Below, in pieces: positions 53,890-57,298 of a DNA stretch of 64,000 nt. Position numbers and translations under genes: made by a program. The first letter of the stretch is position 1, and every line of letters starts with the position of its first letter. The DNA comes from an uncultured delta proteobacterium. GTDB taxonomy: Bacteria > Desulfobacterota > Binatia > UBA9968. The notes under the pieces were generated by a model. It did not search any database. It was not told the DNA's origin and worked only from the letters and a program-made list of their open reading frames with translations. The DNA lies in the NCBI GenBank assembly GCA_963745035.1, contig CAVUVW010000010.1, forward strand, positions 140,632-204,631. The letters are read 5' to 3'.

Positions 53890-54014
53890 GATCAAATTCC
53901 TGCGCACGATAAAACACCATAGTTCGCGTTGCTGTCAACCAACCTGTGCTTGAAAAAGCAGAGTGGTGGCCGTATGACTGGCTCGAATCATCGGGCAGAA
54001 GTTGGGAGATTTGC

Positions 54015-55090
54015 ATGCTGATACTTTCGAACGAGGACATCGAGAAAATCTTACCCGTGGGCACTTGCATCGAGGTGCTCGAAGAAGCTTATCGCGATCT
54101 CGGCAACGGCATGGCCGCGACCGTGCCGCGTTACGATGTTTTCAGTCCCACCAAGCCCGGCGAATTCTATGAGTACAAGACCATGAGCGGCGTTTTGCCG
54201 GGCCGCAACATCGCCGCGCTCAGACTCAATTCCAGCGTCGTCAAATGGTACGAGAAAGCCGGCGGCATTCGCAAAGACAAACTACCGGTGGCCGGAGGAG
54301 ATAAGTACGTTGGCCTCGTGATGCTGTTCAGCACCGAGACCGGTGAGCCGCTGGCGATTTTTCCCGACGGTTATGTGCAGAAGCTGCGCGTCGCGGGCGC
54401 CAGCGCCATCGCGGCGCGCCATCTGGCCCGAAAGGATTCGAAAGTAATGGCGCTGCTCGGCGCGGGCTGGCAGGCGAGCGCGCATCTGGTGACGATGTCC
54501 ATGATACGCGATTTGCAAGAGGTCAGAGTTTTTAGTCCCACGCCCGCATCGCGCCGGCGCTTCGTCGAAGAATGGTCGGGAAAAGTATCGGCGCGGTTGA
54601 TCGACAGCGCCAGCGCCGGAGACGCGATCGCCGGAGCCGATATGGTGATCTGCACGACCAATTCGCTCTCCGCTCTGTTCGACGGCAAGATTCTCGAGCC
54701 GGGAATGCACGTCTCCTGCGTCAAGCCGTGCGAGCTCGATGCGACGACCTACCGGCGCGCCGAGCCCTTGATCATTCACTGGCGCGAAGCCAAGCCTTTT
54801 CAAATCGCCATCGGCGTTGACCGCCAAGCGATTCCCGACGTATCAGACGGTTGGCAGCACCCGCTCACTCGGGAAGACGCGGCGATCTGGGACTTTCCGA
54901 CTCTTTCAGAGCTGGTCAACGACAAGCATCCCGGACGGACGAAGCAAGATTCGATTAGCTGCTTCTGCAACAACGTCGGACTGGGTTGCAGTTCGCGGCC
55001 GTCGGCAGCGAAGTACTGGCGCGCGCGCGGGAGGCGCGAGTCGGGCGGGAGATTCCTACTGATTGGTTTCTCGAGGATGTGCATCCTTAG
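54015..55090 (+). CDS. Ornithine cyclodeaminase/mu-crystallin family protein 2 (indel near 54987)
   Basis: 'GEPLAIF', 'LRVAG', 'GAGWQA', 'ADMVICTTNS'; 'QFAAVG...IPTDWF' in a shifted frame. Confidence 0.88.
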
Positions 55091-55096
55091 ATTGCT

Positions 55097-55159
55097 GGTT
55101 CAAGGTTCAAACGTTCAAAGTTTCAACGTTGGAAGATGACTTGAATCTTAAAGTTCAAT
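55097..55159. repeat. GTTCAA repeat tract
   Basis: GGTTCAAGGTTCAAACGTTCAAAGTTTCAACG...TTGAA; lies between convergent genes. Confidence 0.6.
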
Positions 55160-56201
55160 TTCCCAGAAGCTTCTTTGCCTGATCGACGACCTCGGGCGGT
55201 TGATCGAGAACGTCTTTGATCAATGCTTCGAGCTCTTCGCCGGGAGTATGATCGACTTCCATTCTCGCTTTCTTCGCTTCGGCCAGCAGCTCGGGATCTT
55301 TCAAGACTCTTACGAATGATTCACGCAAGGCTTTGATGCGATCGGGCGGCGTTCCCGGAGTGGCGAGAAACGGCCGGCCGAATTCGCCGCCGGAAAGCAT
55401 TGCCTGGACGACTTTGCGATTATTAGCCGAGACTTTGAACTCGTCGAGAATCTCGTAGATCGTCGGTGCTTCTGCGGCGCGGGAATCCCGTTTGCGACCG
55501 CTCTGCAGCAGGTGGCGGTCGAAGCCTTGCTTGTGCCAGGAGTTGAATGGCTCGCGGCCGAAGTGGGAGGCGAGCGTGTGCGCGCGGCAAACGATCTCGC
55601 CTTTTTCCACCGCCAAGTCGGCTTCGGCGCCGCCGGGATAGCCCAGGACCGGATTGATCTTGGCGCCGAGCGCGAGGTCGAGAATTTTCGCGACGAGGTA
55701 GTCGGAGCTTGTCGTTCCGGAGCCACCGCAGCTTGGCGGTTGTTTAGCCTTGATGATATCGCCGACGGTTTTGAACGGCGTGTCGGCGCGCATGTAAAAG
55801 ATGATCGAATCCTGCGACGCCGAACCGATCCAATGAAATTTTCGCAAATCGAATTGCGCTTCTTTGCGGCCAACCAGTTGCTCGATATAGATGCTGTTGT
55901 TCGGCAGCACCACGGTCAAGCCGTCCGGCTTCGCCACGCCGTAAACGTAGTTGGCTGCCGTCACGGATCCCGCGCCGGGCATATTCTGCACGATGATCTC
56001 AGGATTGCCAGGGATGTACCTGCCCCAGTGGCGCGCGATGAGCCGGCCCCAGGAGTCGTAGAAGTTGCCGGTTGTCGAGCCGACCACGAGCCGGATGGTT
56101 TTTCCCTTGTAAAACGCCTCCACCTGAGCTCGGACGGTTTTCGGCAGCATGGTAAGGGCGAGTAACACGCAGACAAGAGAGAAGATCAATGAGCGTTTCA
56201 C
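55155..56201 (-). CDS. Tripartite tricarboxylate transporter-type (Bug/TctC-like) substrate-binding protein
   Basis: 'FYKGKTIRLVVG', 'IPGNP.IIVQNMPGAGS', 'AKPDGLT', 'PGTPPDR'. Confidence 0.88.
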   Translation of the reverse strand: MKRSLIFSLVCVLLALTMLPKTVRAQVEAFYKGKTIRLVVGSTTGNFYDSWGRLIARHWGRYIPGNPEIIVQNMPGAGSVTAANYVYGVAKPDGLTVVLPNNSIYIEQLVGRKEAQFDLRKFHWIGSASQDSIIFYMRADTPFKTVGDIIKAKQPPSCGGSGTTSSDYLVAKILDLALGAKINPVLGYPGGAEADLAVEKGEIVCRAHTLASHFGREPFNSWHKQGFDRHLLQSGRKRDSRAAEAPTIYEILDEFKVSANNRKVVQAMLSGGEFGRPFLATPGTPPDRIKALRESFVRVLKDPELLAEAKKARMEVDHTPGEELEALIKDVLDQPPEVVDQAKKLLGN

Positions 56202-56379
56202 TGGAGCCTCCTGTTCGTGGATTGCCGCGTGAGACTAGTCGAAGCCACCGCGCGCTGTCAAATTCGCATGGCGGCGCTTGGCTTACCTCGTTTGCTTGGC
56301 GCTGTAATCGGCGAGCCGTAATCGGAAGACAGATCAAAAAGTTTTTTCGCGACACTCCATCAAAATGAGAGCTATTCAA

Positions 56380-56408
56380 TTGACACGCGAATTTCACTTT
56401 CGTAAACT
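56380..56408 (+). promoter_or_regulatory. sigma70-type promoter
   Basis: TTGACA (56380-85), 17-bp spacer, TAAACT (56403-08). Confidence 0.75.
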
Positions 56409-56414
56409 GGAGTC

Positions 56415-56547
56415 AGCAGAGAAAGGAGGTGGTCCAGACATGATTGATAAATGTACTGTCTGCGAGGTGGCTGAGACTTAGGCTCTAGGCGGAATCTTTG
56501 ACGGGGATTCAGGCCTGGAGCCTGGGAATCCCCCTCAGTCCACCTAG
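56415..56547 (+). ncRNA. Candidate small RNA / mini-mRNA with an 18-nt anti-16S 3'-end sequence
   Basis: AGAAAGGAGGTGGTCCAG (56420-37), then a short ORF and the hairpin GGGGATTC-AGGC...GCCT-GG-GAATCCCC (56503-34). Confidence 0.5.
56440..56481 (+). CDS. 13-aa small ORF MIDKCTVCEVAET
   Basis: ATG...TAG directly after an exceptionally long Shine-Dalgarno; contains CxxC. Confidence 0.5.
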   Translation: MIDKCTVCEVAET

Positions 56548-56557
56548 TGGGCCCGCT

Positions 56558-57298
56558 TCAACGGTCGCTTTGGCCGCCGCTTGAAGCGGGCCTTCTTTTT
56601 TTTAGGAGTTCCAAGGCGGCAGCCGCCGCCTTTTTGACCTGCTCGTCTTCGATCCGAGAGTTTTTCTCTAAAGCCGCCACGAACTCCGCGGCAGGATCGC
56701 CGAGGGTCGCGAGAGCGATCGCCGCGGCGTGCCGCACCTTCAATTCCGGATCGTTCAGATAAATATCCAGCAAAATTTTCTTGCCCTCCACGGCCAGTTC
56801 GGATCTTGACTTGAGACAGATCGCTGCGGCGACACGGACGCTGGGCTCGGGGTCGGCCAGCGCGTCGAGCATGGCGGCGGCGCTCGCCGGATCGGACAGC
56901 GCCAGATCGCGCAGGCAATACAGCGCCATGCGCTTCTGATTGTCCGAGCCGGACGCGCAAAGGCGAACCAGCGAGGAGACGAGATCGGCGTTATTCTTGG
57001 CGACGCGGGCGAGCAGCAAGGAAACCGCCCAGCGGATATCCGGCTCGCGATGATCGAGCGCTTCGAGAAGGCCGAGCGCGGCGGCGCGGGAGAGATTTGG
57101 GAGACTTCCCAGAATGTAGGCGACCGGCCAGTAGTTTCTATGACCGGCTTCGGTGAGGCGCCGTTGCAAGCGCTCGCGCAGTCCCGGGGAATCGGCGGCC
57201 AGCGCGATCAGCGCGTCGACGGCGGCGCGTATCGCCGGCTTGTCGGACTGATCGAGCTCGGCGATCAGCGCGGTGGTGCGATCGTCCTCGAACTCCAT
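56558..57298 (-). CDS. HEAT-repeat protein
   Basis: Repeated 'L.D....VR.AAA..L' units. Confidence 0.85.
   Translation of the reverse strand: MEFEDDRTTALIAELDQSDKPAIRAAVDALIALAADSPGLRERLQRRLTEAGHRNYWPVAYILGSLPNLSRAAALGLLEALDHREPDIRWAVSLLLARVAKNNADLVSSLVRLCASGSDNQKRMALYCLRDLALSDPASAAAMLDALADPEPSVRVAAAICLKSRSELAVEGKKILLDIYLNDPELKVRHAAAIALATLGDPAAEFVAALEKNSRIEDEQVKKAAAAALELLKKRRPASSGGQSDR

What the first reader, a model, noticed from the sequence alone, without database searches (positions are those of the whole stretch)
56380..56547. Mini transcription unit whose 5' end is an 18-nt complement of the 16S rRNA 3' end
Seen: a near-consensus promoter (TTGACA-N17-TAAACT) puts the start near 56415. 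Immediately after it, AGAAAGGAGGTGGTCCAG (56420-37) can pair along its full length with the typical 16S terminus 5'-CUGGAUCACCUCCUUUCU-3' (17 Watson-Crick pairs plus 1 G:U). A normal SD pairs only 4-8 nt. Next come a 13-codon ORF, a second SD-like GAGGTGG inside it (56464-70), and a long hairpin (56485-56547). No long gene lies downstream on this strand. Inference: a dedicated small RNA that binds or sequesters 30S subunits, or affects 16S 3'-end maturation, possibly by invading helix 45. Alternatively it is a very highly translated micro-peptide mRNA. Standard annotation would miss it.
Basis: partly seen in the sequence, partly recalled or inferred. Interest (0 to 1): 0.8.

Follow-up and report, generated by a model that had tools for sequence, protein, structure and literature searches.

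The report
Small mRNA with giant Shine-Dalgarno
A conserved transcript of about 185 bases carries an 18-base match to the tail of the ribosome's 16S RNA and a 13-codon mini-gene; it is a relative of known but still unexplained small RNAs that dock onto the small ribosomal subunit.

Summary
Confirmed. Window 56380-56603 (+) is a self-contained unit. It has a conserved sigma-70-type promoter and an 18-nt stretch (56420-56437) that pairs along its full length with this genome's own 16S 3' end (17 Watson-Crick + 1 G:U). Among 10,518 GGAGG sites in the genome, only this site and the rRNA gene's own antisense do so. Then come a 13-codon ORF (56440-56481), a covariation-supported multi-helix domain that sequesters the second SD-like motif, and an intrinsic terminator.

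It is a distant homologue of the Rfam sRNA Ms_IGR-5 (35.4 bits, below the 45-bit cut-off; E 4.5e-6). It is the same kind of gene as rreB/rreR of alpha-proteobacteria, small mRNAs with 16-17-nt SDs; rreB was shown to bind 30S tightly and to be translated weakly (PMC5711450).

Copies occur in 56 of 61 genomes of its order, and in Actinomycetota, Leptospiraceae, Ignavibacteria-class and Dehalococcoidia genomes.

Function is unknown. Best reading: a ribosome-docking, weakly translated small mRNA whose fold and decay depend on ribosome engagement. Sequestration, helix-45 invasion and 'very high translation' are not.

This scan had already noted a sister element on other DNA (e1-755541). New member of a known kind.

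The parts
56380..56408 (+). Sigma-70-type promoter: TTGACA (56380-85), 17 nt, TAAACT (56403-08). The predicted start is near A56415.
   Evidence: 10 of 12 consensus positions; the only site in 1.4 kb. Both hexamers are kept in the alignment of 50 related loci. The start itself is inferred, not mapped.
56416..56419 (+). P1, 5' strand (GCAG). It pairs with CUGC at 56460-63 and closes a loop of about 40 nt that holds the 16S complement, the start codon and the N-terminal codons.
   Evidence: 116 of 116 cells paired (4 pairs, 29 sequences). One search shows cross-phylum covariation with the wobble base of the codon before GAG: CACA+TGT 82, CACA+TGC 0, CGCA+TGC 12, CGCA+TGT 1, GCAG+TGC 42, GCAG+TGT 11, ACAG+TGT 2, ACAG+TGC 0, and 11 unclassified, out of 161.
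56420..56437 (+). 18-nt complement of the 16S rRNA 3' end (extended Shine-Dalgarno, SD1).
   Evidence: Predicted duplex energy is -32.0 kcal/mol, against -8.7 for GGAGG alone. The contiguous pairable run is 15-18 nt in all 47 unique sequences from blastn-found relatives.
56440..56481 (+). Micro-ORF: ATG, 13 sense codons (MIDKCTVCEVAET), TAG.
   Evidence: An in-frame start 3-16 nt after GGAGG, open up to the GAG GTG anchor, is present in 159 of 161 unique family sequences (frame +1: 0; frame +2: 79). The stop lies exactly 5 codons from GAG in 159 of 161 (TAG 153, TAA 6, TGA 1 among the 160 sequences with a frame-0 stop; 1 truncated). All indels within the ORF among relatives are multiples of 3.
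56460..56463 (+). P1, 3' strand (CUGC; it overlaps the second Cys codon).
56465..56475 (+). H2, 5' strand AGGUGGCUGAG. It contains the second SD-like motif (GAGGUGG, 56464-70) and lies inside the ORF.
   Evidence: helix 2: 90.3% of cells paired; the variable base N of GGUGNCUG tracks its partner (G with C or U, A with U, U with A or G).
56477..56526 (+). H3 (56477-90 with 56513-26; it includes the stop codon), enclosing hairpin H4 (56492-99 with 56503-10).
   Evidence: H3: 14 pairs, 3 with changes on both sides, 94.7% paired. H4: 8 pairs, 1 with changes on both sides, 94.0% paired.
56526..56534 (+). C-rich motif GAAUCCCCC ('Z'). It is unpaired in the best-supported fold and can alternatively pair with GGGGAUUC (56503-10).
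   Evidence: a related motif (AAUYCC, then CAG, then ACC) precedes the 3' strand of H2 in Binatia-labelled, actinobacterial and Ignavibacteriales copies; the alternative helix is 92.4% paired, with 1 compensatory pair; this fold scores -68.7 against -83.9 kcal/mol.
56534..56545 (+). H2, 3' strand: CUCAG, a bulged U, then CCACCU (an anti-SD-like sequence).
56550..56603 (+). Intrinsic terminator: stem-loop 56550-56592 and U-rich tract 56593-56603.
   Evidence: -32.1 kcal/mol for the hairpin. helix 5: 7 of 10 pairs show changes on both sides, 97.2% paired.

Best explanation
This is a free-standing gene for a small mRNA of about 185 nt, which may equally be called a translated sRNA. It is a distant homologue of Ms_IGR-5 and is built like rreB/rreR. 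Proposed mechanism: its 5' part offers free, mature 30S subunits a 15-18-bp partner for the 16S 3' tail, so the RNA docks on 30S far more tightly than an ordinary mRNA. The duplex runs to within 2 nt of the ATG, so placing the start codon in the P site should need partial unzipping, and the 13-codon ORF is therefore translated only weakly. The last codons and the stop codon lie inside helices H2 and H3. A ribosome that does translate must open these helices. That frees the C-rich CCACCU segment and allows the alternative Y:Z hairpin to form. Ribosome engagement would thus decide the RNA's fold and probably its decay. Shown here: the anatomy, its conservation, the reading frame and the covariation. 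Shown elsewhere for analogues or homologues: 30S binding, weak translation and start-codon-dependent decay for rreB, and ribosome footprints for Ms_IGR-5. Inferred only: the unzipping step, the fold switch, and any physiological output, which remains unknown.
For: Anatomy and uniqueness.

Homology: RF02471 aligns over positions 1-184 of 184 at 56415-56599, E 4.5e-6. This is the only site in the genome that matches it (E 5.6e-6).

Conservation: blastn matches in 56 of 61 genomes of the order, and in 36 of 37 of the high-quality ones. Promoter, complement, ORF and terminator are all kept.

Selection for pairing with 16S: positions that face a U vary only between A and G. Position 1 is A or G in 46 of 47 unique sequences from relatives. 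Position 3 is A or G in 114 of 114 pattern-scan sequences. Position 17 is A or G in 102 of 114. Leptospiraceae copies read GGTTTAG, which keeps the pairing through G:U.

Reading frame: start in frame in 159 of 161, stop at a fixed place in 159 of 161, and the 7 non-TAG stop variants are all stop codons.

Structure: z-score -5.76, with 0 of 200 shuffles folding as well. 94.5% of cells are paired, 12 pairs change on both sides, and 0 of 500 shuffles reach this. P1 and H2 covary across phyla.

Constrained folds: blocking 56464-56495, as a ribosome at the stop codon would, gives the Y:Z hairpin and pairs CCACCU with SD1.

Expression hint: a 176-nt contig of a soil metatranscriptome lies wholly within 56424-56599, with 2 differences.

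Literature: rreB has a 17-nt complement and a 14-codon sORF. It co-sediments with 30S. The 5' extension of its SD is needed for that. It is translated weakly. A GUG-to-UAG change raises its half-life from 10 to 37 min (PMC5711450). MS_IGR-5 homologues of M. abscessus and M. smegmatis show significant ribosomal reads (PMC4974804, passage).
Against: The Rfam match is below the curated cut-off (35.4 against 45 bits).

There is no experiment on this organism. The RNA-library contigs cannot show strand, ends or level, and DNA may be present in such libraries.

In the full-length fold the first 8 nt of the complement are predicted to be mostly paired (P unpaired 0.01-0.11), to the U-rich 3' tail. 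The opening cost is 9.6 kcal/mol. That pairing is not clearly conserved.

The peptide is not conserved as such in the wider family. Cys is replaced by Arg, Gly, Pro or Leu in actinobacterial and Leptospira copies, and 4 genomes show no canonical in-frame start at the usual spacing. Translation may therefore not be universal, and the conserved 'EVA' codons coincide with helix H2.

rreB overproduction had no growth phenotype (PMC5711450), so the physiological role of the whole class is unknown.

rreB and this family share design, not demonstrable sequence homology beyond the SD (RF01867: 22.9 bits, E 0.02).
Confidence: 0.6

Rival explanations
1. The 13-residue peptide is the functional product. 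The giant SD would only serve to secure (high or conditional) translation of a micro-protein.
For: Frame, start and stop are strongly conserved. Indels occur in multiples of three. The C-terminal C-E-V-[ATSP] is shared from Binatia-labelled to actinobacterial copies.
Against: The conserved codons lie exactly in P1 and H2, and their wobble bases covary with RNA partners, so the amino-acid conservation can be a by-product. In a search that required only GAGGTGNCTG, the residue before E varies: C, R, G, P, L. No synonymous variant of GAG GTG is seen in the 47 unique sequences from relatives found without the pattern. Some copies lack a canonical start. For rreB the long SD lowered translation, and the synthetic peptides were unstructured (PMC5711450). 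No conserved neighbouring gene exists that could act on, or with, a peptide.
Confidence: 0.15
2. A classical trans-acting base-pairing sRNA. Its C-rich segments (GAAUCCCCC, CCACCU) would mask the SDs of target mRNAs. The SD-plus-ORF part would only tune its stability.
For: The C-rich motif ahead of the 3' strand of H2 recurs across phyla. It is unpaired in the best-supported fold. The family was first catalogued as an sRNA (Rfam; PMC8079986 and PMC8780764, passages).
Against: No target search was done here. This does not explain why 15-18 nt of exact 16S complementarity, with purine-only variation opposite U, is kept. CCACCU is held in an 11-bp helix.
Confidence: 0.1
3. A factor acting on 16S 3'-end maturation or protection, or a true ribosome sponge. 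It would invade helix 45, shield the tail from nucleases or toxins, or take 30S out of the pool.
For: The complement ends at about the mature 3' terminus: the leader bases before it (GCAG) do not match the precursor sequence AAGGAG that follows in the gene. The predicted duplex is very stable (-32 kcal/mol).
Against: The bases that would enter helix 45 (positions 16-18) are the least conserved. The f3 genus keeps only 15 nt. Each genome examined holds a single copy, and for rreB ribosomes far outnumber the RNA and 20-fold overproduction had no growth effect (PMC5711450). A conserved reading frame would not be needed.
Confidence: 0.05
4. A leader peptide or attenuator that controls a downstream gene in cis.
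For: A short ORF followed by alternative hairpins and a terminator resembles an attenuator.
Against: No + strand gene follows. The next genes (HEAT-repeat protein, M24 peptidase) are convergent. Neighbours differ completely between phyla. The terminator hairpin takes no part in the alternative pairing.
Confidence: 0.03

Closest known systems
rreB / rreR small mRNAs of alpha-proteobacteria (Hahn et al., RNA Biol 2017, PMC5711450)
   Same: Free-standing transcript of about 165-190 nt with its own promoter and terminator. 16-18 nt complementary to the 16S 3' end directly before a 13-18-codon ORF. The SD region is partly enclosed in secondary structure. The ORF is conserved within the clade. Genomic context is not conserved between clades. 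Some relatives of the window's element (L045, L156) even have the rre arrangement CCAGTG, in which the G of a GTG start is the last base of the complement.
   Different: The phyla differ: Binatia-labelled lineage, Actinomycetota and others, whereas the paper reports only alpha-proteobacteria. Here the start is ATG, 2 nt after the complement. There is no detectable sequence homology beyond the SD. This family has a second SD-like motif locked in a long-range helix. 30S binding, weak translation and decay were measured for rreB, not for this family.
Rfam RF02471, Ms_IGR-5 (actinobacterial sRNA of unknown function)
   Same: Full-length alignment (model positions 1-184) at E 4.5e-6. The 5' GGAAGGAGGUGGUCC is shared. 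The consensus carries an ORF in the same place that reads MIDLWTCEVAAR, against MIDKCTVCEVAET here. The GAGGUGGCUG motif, the AAUUCCCC...CAGUCACC motif and the terminator are shared. It is expressed in Streptomyces (PMC8079986, PMC8780764) and carries ribosome footprints in mycobacteria (PMC4974804).
   Different: The score is below the gathering cut-off (35.4 against 45 bits). The host is not an actinobacterium. The central domain (H3/H4) is built differently. In the papers found here, Ms_IGR-5 is treated as a non-coding sRNA, and neither its 16S complementarity nor its ORF is discussed.
Rfam RF01867, CC2171 (Caulobacter sRNA; also seen on Northern blots in Methylorubrum, bioRxiv 10.1101/2022.01.24.477521)
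   Same: The 5' GAAAGGAGGUGAUCCAGUG is shared. A segment just after the start pairs with a segment just before the terminator. Function is unknown (passages).
   Different: Only 22.9 bits against a cut-off of 75 (E 0.02). The similarity is confined to the SD and the terminator. There is no EV[AT] ORF motif. It probably corresponds to the Caulobacterales rre genes mentioned by Hahn et al.; that is my inference and was not checked.

Membership tests
Rfam RF02471 Ms_IGR-5 | Score at or above the curated gathering cut-off (45 bits) | tested here: not met
   35.4 bits. No family reaches its gathering score in the window.
Rfam RF02471 Ms_IGR-5 | Significant end-to-end alignment to the covariance model | tested here: met
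   Model positions 1-184 of 184 at 56415-56599. E 4.5e-6 in 1.4 kb and E 5.6e-6 for the whole genome, where it is the only hit.
Rfam RF02471 Ms_IGR-5 | Shared sequence blocks: AAGGAGGUGRUCC, UGYGAGGUGNCUG, stop two codons later, AAUYCC..CAG.CACC, terminator | tested here: met
   For the loci the first two blocks were imposed by the search pattern. For the window and the blastn-found relatives they were not.
Rfam RF02471 Ms_IGR-5 | Actinobacterial host | tested here: not met
   Public records with near-identical copies are titled Candidatus Binatia, 'Deltaproteobacteria bacterium' or Syntrophobacter(ales) MAGs.
rre-type small mRNA (rreB/rreR) | At least 16 nt of complementarity to the 3' end of the host's 16S rRNA directly upstream of a small ORF | tested here: met
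   18 nt against the genome's own 16S.
rre-type small mRNA (rreB/rreR) | Free-standing small transcript with its own promoter and terminator | tested here: met
   The predicted promoter and terminator are conserved. A 176-nt RNA-library contig is confined to 56424-56599. Transcript ends were not mapped.
rre-type small mRNA (rreB/rreR) | Small ORF (14-18 codons) conserved within the clade | tested here: met
   13 codons here. The frame is conserved in 159 of 161 unique sequences.
rre-type small mRNA (rreB/rreR) | GTG start whose first base is the last base of the complement | tested here: not met
   The window has ATG 2 nt after the complement. The rre arrangement is seen in relatives L045 and L156.
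rre-type small mRNA (rreB/rreR) | Tight binding to 30S, weak translation, start-codon-dependent decay | not testable with these tools
   Known only for rreB (PMC5711450). Indirect support: ribosome footprints on Ms_IGR-5 homologues (PMC4974804).
Rfam RF01867 CC2171 | Score at or above the gathering cut-off (75 bits) | tested here: not met
   22.9 bits, E 0.02.
Leader-peptide transcription attenuator | Co-oriented regulated gene downstream of the terminator | tested here: not met
   The next genes are convergent. Context differs between phyla.

The most novel reading that the evidence does not exclude
Ms_IGR-5, the element found here, and the alpha-proteobacterial rre/CC2171 genes are one widespread, ancient class of 'ribosome-docking' RNAs. 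Each would be a bistable small mRNA that reads out the supply of free 30S subunits with an intact, mature 16S 3' tail. Docking and a rare round of translation would flip it between two conserved folds, and this would set its own lifetime and expose an anti-SD-like segment. In effect the cell would be using a decoy mRNA as a sensor of translational capacity or of damage to the 16S tail.
Probability: 0.2. Interest if true: 0.8.

Novelty: new member of a known kind. Interest (0 to 1): 0.55.

Why it matters
An SD of 15-18 nt, kept under visible selection for pairing with 16S in several phyla, is far outside what translation initiation needs. The function of the only studied examples (rre genes) is still called elusive by their discoverers.

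This work shows four things. The actinobacterial 'non-coding' sRNA Ms_IGR-5 carries the same design. The family reaches well beyond Actinobacteria: 56 of 61 genomes of the window's order, 34 of 121 sampled Actinomycetota, and 26 of 41 sampled Leptospiraceae. The family has a conserved reading frame. Its last codons are locked in covarying helices.

This turns a curiosity of one alpha-proteobacterial family into a broadly distributed class. It also points to tractable hosts (M. smegmatis, Streptomyces) in which the open question of what these RNAs do at the ribosome can be tested. For annotation, the element is missed by Rfam at curated thresholds and by gene callers.

Tried and rejected
(1) RNAalifold on a MAFFT alignment of 35 sequences that mixed families f1 and f3 gave an almost empty consensus (-14.6). 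Only the f1-type subset gave a usable structure.

(2) An energy test of H2 against mononucleotide shuffles of the downstream region was not discriminating in these G+C-rich sequences. Mean energy was -12.8 against -10.6 kcal/mol, and only 27 of 160 sequences beat all 30 shuffles. I rely instead on the recurring position and sequence of the partner.

(3) The MFE pairing between the 5' AGAGAAAGGA and the U-rich 3' tail looks generic for any terminator tail. The tail sequence varies among relatives. I did not adopt it.

(4) The alternative fold B (Y:Z hairpin) is compatible with the alignment (92.4% paired, 1 compensatory pair) but 15 kcal/mol less stable. I keep it only as a possible translation-induced state.

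(5) A shared genomic context across phyla was sought. Ten flanking ORFs were taken from 5 lineages. Six had Pfam hits, all to unrelated families, and the four actinobacterial ORFs had none and may be spurious.

(6) In the rest of the window's phylum, 6 of 200 sampled genomes matched the loose pattern. The matches look like chance, and the reversed-pattern control gave 7 hits. The element was not found there at this sensitivity.

(7) The peptide strings CEVAAR, CEVAAS and CEVAET have no occurrence in the searched paper library. The search for 'rreB' (237 papers hold the term, 25 listed) and the search turned up no functional follow-up.

(8) Sequencing runs: shares of 0.15-0.38 of a 401-nt query. 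Parts without cover, and the contigs over 56544-56697 whose strand is unknown, are not used as evidence.

(9) No tRNA or tmRNA lies in the window.

(10) I did not build a covariance model of my own or run a target prediction.
Full report
1. OBSERVATION

The sequence is as described. TTGACA (56380-85), 17 nt, TAAACT (56403-08) is the only promoter-like site in 55800-57200 (10 of 12 consensus positions; shuffles give a mean of 0.4). AGAAAGGAGGTGGTCCAG lies at 56420-37.

The genome holds one detectable 16S gene. Its 3' end reads ...GCGGCTGGATCACCTCCTTTCT, followed by AAGGAGC. The 18-mer therefore pairs with the host's own 16S tail through 17 Watson-Crick pairs and one G:U.

The wobble-tolerant pattern occurs once in the window, and 0 of 100 shuffles give a match. 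With two mismatches allowed the expectation is 0.39. Of 10,518 GGAGG sites in the 7.43-Mb assembly, two pair over 18 contiguous positions: the antisense of the 16S gene itself and this site. The next best pairs over 15, only 9 of them Watson-Crick. The predicted duplex energy is -32.0 kcal/mol, against -8.7 for GGAGG alone and -11.6 for an 8-nt SD.

The ORF is 56440-56481 (MIDKCTVCEVAET). The second GAGGTGG is at 56464-70. No tRNA or tmRNA lies in the window. No Rfam family reaches its gathering score.

2. WHAT IT IS RELATED TO

A permissive Rfam scan of 1.4 kb gave a full-length match (model positions 1-184 of 184; 56415-56599) to RF02471, Ms_IGR-5. The score is 35.4 bits against a cut-off of 45, with E 4.5e-6. 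A weak match to RF01867, CC2171, scored 22.9 against 75 bits (E 0.02). In the whole genome this is the only RF02471 hit (E 5.6e-6).

The Ms_IGR-5 consensus printed carries GGAAGGAGGUGGUCC followed by an ORF that reads MIDLWTCEVAAR. It then has GAGGUGGCUG, AAUUCCCC...CAGUC-ACC and a terminator. These are the same blocks in the same order as in the window.

Both Rfam families are sRNAs seen experimentally but without a known function. This rests on passages in PMC8079986 and PMC8780764 (Streptomyces, RNA-seq validated), PMC10454040 (M. smegmatis, ncMSMEG15794c) and bioRxiv 10.1101/2022.01.24.477521 (CC2171 Northern blot in Methylorubrum). PMC4974804 (passage) reports significant ribosome-protected reads on MS_IGR-5 homologues in M. 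abscessus and M. smegmatis.

The decisive paper for the kind of element is Hahn et al. (PMC5711450; abstract, Results and Discussion read). It describes rreB of Bradyrhizobiaceae:
- It is a 165-nt free-standing mRNA with a 17-nt perfect complement to the 16S 3' end and a 14-codon ORF.
- It co-sediments with 30S.
- The 5' extension of the SD is needed for that localisation.
[quoted passage not shown] - A 20-fold overproducer grows normally.

Analogues with 16-17-nt complements (rreR and others) were reported only in alpha-proteobacteria, and the function is called elusive.

My searches found no paper that links Ms_IGR-5 to this design or extends rre genes beyond alpha-proteobacteria. 'Ms_IGR-5' occurs in 3 papers. 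Searches found nothing further. The peptide strings have no occurrence. The library does not hold most subscription journals, and supplements were closed.

An earlier agent of this scan reached the same identification for a sister element in another genome (e1-755541). I had reached the Rfam link independently.

3. CONSERVATION

blastn with 56400-56610 found a match in 56 of 61 genomes of the same order, the window's own genome included. Among genomes at least 90% complete the figure is 36 of 37. By family it is f1 31/36, f2 5/5, f3 19/19. The five genomes without a match are 84-94% complete. Two of the 56 (G005, G035) are unpublished genomes; without them the count is 54 of 59.

Between families the conserved block is query positions 13-87, that is window 56412-56486. 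In 50 aligned loci (two of them, L004 and L030, from the unpublished genomes G005 and G035) the promoter hexamers, CAGCAG[AG]GAAAGGAGGTGGTC, the ORF and TG[CT]GAGGTG[GAC]CTGAGAC[TC]TAGGCT are all kept.

Of these, 80 were listed with record titles. They come from Mycobacterium/Mycolicibacterium, Streptomyces, Kitasatospora, Saccharopolyspora and Streptosporangiaceae. They also come from MAGs titled Candidatus Binatia, 'Deltaproteobacteria' or Syntrophobacter(ales), and from Dehalococcoidia, Ignavibacteriales and Leptospira weilii.

With a looser pattern (GGAGGTGRT, 12-45 nt, GAGGTGNCTG) I found one copy in each of five such genomes. The wider samples gave these counts:
- Actinomycetota: 34 of 121 sampled genomes, with 2 control hits. 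One match is in the unpublished G347, so 33 of 120 without it.
- Leptospiraceae: 26 of 41, with 0 control hits.
- The class around an Ignavibacteriales genome: 6 of 41, of which 5 are credible.
- The rest of the window's own phylum: only chance-like hits in 6 of 200, with 7 control hits.

The distribution is therefore wide but patchy. These are samples and exact-pattern searches, so they are lower bounds.

4. IS THE LONG COMPLEMENT SELECTED FOR PAIRING?

Among the 47 unique sequences found by blastn, where no motif was imposed, the contiguous pairable run to the 16S tail is 15 nt in 14, 16 in 1, 17 in 4 and 18 in 28. This assumes the same 16S tail in all of them.

Variation at positions that face a U is confined to purines. 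Position 1 is A 16, G 30, C 1. Position 13 is always G.

In the 114 unique pattern-scan sequences only positions 1-3 and 16-18 were free to vary:
- Position 1 is A or G in 105.
- Position 2 is G in 112.
- Position 3 is A or G in 114.
- Position 16 is C or T in 108.
- Position 17 is A or G in 102.
- Position 18 is G in only 28.

Some Leptospiraceae copies read GGTTTAG, which keeps all pairs through G:U. The core of 15-17 nt is therefore under selection consistent with pairing. The last base or bases, which would enter helix 45, are not.

5. IS THE ORF REAL?

I examined 161 unique family sequences, drawn from 168 of 169 loci that carry the motif. For the loci the pattern fixed TGY GAG GTG NCTG. 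Two of the 161 are represented by L004 and L030, from the unpublished genomes G005 and G035.
- A start codon 3-16 nt after GGAGG, open to the anchor, exists in frame 0 in 159, in frame +1 in 0 and in frame +2 in 79.
- The stop lies exactly five codons after GAG in 159 of the 161. One lies at four codons and one sequence is truncated.
- Of the 160 frame-0 stop codons, 153 are TAG, 6 are TAA and 1 is TGA. Thus every departure from TAG at that position is still a stop codon.
- Starts are ATG 73, TTG 76 and GTG 9.
- Peptides are 11-16 residues long.

Among relatives, ORF length differences are +3, +3, +3, -3 and -6 nt. This argues that ribosomes read the frame.

The peptide itself is poorly constrained. 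The N-terminal half varies freely, and with the looser pattern the residue before E is C, R, G, P or L. In four actinobacterial genomes the only in-frame candidate at the usual spacing is CTG. The invariant 'EV[AT]' codons coincide with RNA helix H2 (section 6). I conclude that the act of translation, or at least initiation and termination at fixed places, is more likely to be conserved than a peptide function.

6. RNA STRUCTURE

The 189-nt RNA folds at -95.7 kcal/mol, with z = -5.76 and 0 of 200 shuffles folding as well. I tested a structure on an alignment of 29 f1/f2-type sequences (A1), which excludes the unpublished genomes. The structure comprises:
- P1: 56416-19 with 56460-63.
- H2: 56465-75 with 56534-45, with one bulge.
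- H3: 56477-90 with 56513-26.
- H4: 56492-99 with 56503-10.
- The terminator.

It has 94.5% of cells paired and 12 pairs with changes on both sides. All five measures exceed all 500 shuffles, and the slid controls are far lower at 30-50% paired. The terminator (7 compensatory pairs) and H3 (3) carry most of the covariation. H2 and P1 vary little within this set. The usual caveat applies: related sequences can exceed shuffles without any structure.

P1 and H2 gain support across phyla. The leader tetramer covaries with the wobble base of the codon before GAG:
- CACA with TGT 82, with TGC 0.
- CGCA with TGC 12, with TGT 1.
- GCAG with TGC 42, with TGT 11.
- ACAG with TGT 2, with TGC 0.
- Unclassified 11.

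There is thus no A-C mismatch among the 150 classified sequences. The variable base of GGUGNCUG is matched in the downstream CAG.CACC-like partner: G with C or U, A with U, U with A or G. The two N=C sequences are mismatched.

The anatomy is therefore as follows. A short helix closes a loop that presents the 16S complement and the start codon. The ORF's last five codons and its stop codon are locked in H2 and H3. The 3' strand of H2 is an anti-SD-like CCACCU, preceded by a C-rich GAAUCCCCC.

An alternative hairpin (GGGGAUU with AAUCCCC) is compatible with the alignment (92.4% paired, 1 compensatory pair). It resembles the arrangement in f3, actinobacterial and Ignavibacteriales copies. In the free RNA it is 15 kcal/mol less stable (-68.7 against -83.9).

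Constrained folding suggests how the two folds relate. Blocking 56420-55, as a 30S at the start would, leaves the main fold intact. Blocking 56464-95, as a ribosome at the stop would, yields the alternative hairpin and lets CCACCU pair with the first SD. This switch is a prediction only.

7. CONTEXT AND EXPRESSION

The element lies in a 356-nt gap. Upstream is a divergent TctC-family gene (55155-56201, minus strand). Downstream is a convergent HEAT-repeat gene (56558-57298, minus strand), whose last codons overlap the terminator stem. An M24 peptidase gene follows.

The HEAT neighbour is found in 44 of 168 searched loci, including 29 of 29 loci of the same genus or family (the 29 include L004 and L030; 27 of 27 without them). 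M24 is found in 34 (26 of those 29; 25 of 27 without L004 and L030), an upstream OCD-family gene in 18, and TctC in 0. Many loci are only about 3 kb long, so absences are weak evidence. Flanks in Leptospira, Ignavibacteriales and Dehalococcoidia copies are unrelated. As with rre genes, context is not conserved between clades.

Soil and rhizosphere RNA libraries hold parts of the stretch. In one metatranscriptome a 176-nt contig lies entirely within 56424-56599, with 2 differences. Two other runs hold shorter pieces or a relative's copy. Contigs show presence in an RNA library, not strand, ends or level.

8. MECHANISM AND VERDICT

Best reading (confidence about 0.6): a ribosome-docking small mRNA of the rre/Ms_IGR-5 kind. 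The steps are as follows, with the basis for each in brackets:
- 30S binds through a 15-18-bp SD helix (inferred from sequence; shown for rreB).
- The duplex reaches to within 2 nt of the ATG and so hinders P-site placement, which makes translation weak (inferred; shown for rreB).
- Ribosomes that do translate melt H2 and H3 and remodel the RNA (predicted).
- Ribosome engagement controls decay (shown for rreB only).

The physiological output is unknown. The rivals are a functional peptide (0.15), a trans-acting C-rich sRNA (0.10), a 16S maturation/protection factor or sponge (0.05) and a cis attenuator (0.03).

Novelty: a new member of a known kind, namely a distant, sub-threshold member of Ms_IGR-5 in a new lineage, with the rre design. 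Three points appear not to be in print in the library searched: the link between Ms_IGR-5 and the rre design, the multi-phylum range, and the covarying helices over the ORF end. Interest 0.55.

Noticed in passing
window 56544-56700 (minus-strand HEAT-repeat gene 56558-57298): The stop codon and last codons of the convergent HEAT-repeat gene lie inside the sRNA's terminator stem. RNA-library contigs from three runs cover 56544-56697, so the two transcripts may overlap tail to tail. The arrangement sRNA, then HEAT gene, then M24 peptidase is kept in 29 of 29 (HEAT) and 26 of 29 (M24) loci of the same genus or family.
   Followed up: partly
window 55155-56201 (minus strand): The TctC-family receptor gene directly upstream of the element has no counterpart next to the element in any of the 168 other loci. 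In 18 of them the upstream neighbour is instead the OCD/mu-crystallin gene, which lies at 53946-55139 here. TctC looks like an insertion specific to this genome.
   Followed up: partly
own genome, C24 near 10895 (-) and C19 near 284648 (+); outside the window: Two near-identical copies of a stretch contain a 13-nt perfect complement of the 16S tail (GGAGGTGATCCAG) followed directly by TTG. They agree in 49 of the 50 bases printed. This may be a repeated or mobile gene with a long SD.
   Followed up: no
G286, G301, G345, G373 (Actinomycetota): In these family members the only in-frame candidate start at the usual spacing is CTG (…GGTCCAG CTG TCA…). This is either a non-canonical start or a copy that is no longer translated.
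   Followed up: no
window 56415-56424 with 56592-56603: The purine-rich 5' end (AGAGAAAGGA) is predicted to pair with the CCUUCUUUU tail of the terminator. That tail itself resembles the 16S 3' end. The pairing lowers the predicted accessibility of the first 8 nt of the complement to 0.01-0.11. The tail sequence varies among relatives.
   Followed up: partly
L053, L088 and other loci: Public MAGs titled Syntrophobacter or Syntrophobacterales carry copies that are identical, or nearly so, to those of genomes the tool places in the window's genus or order. Other such records are titled Candidatus Binatia. The record titles are taxonomically inconsistent.
   Followed up: no
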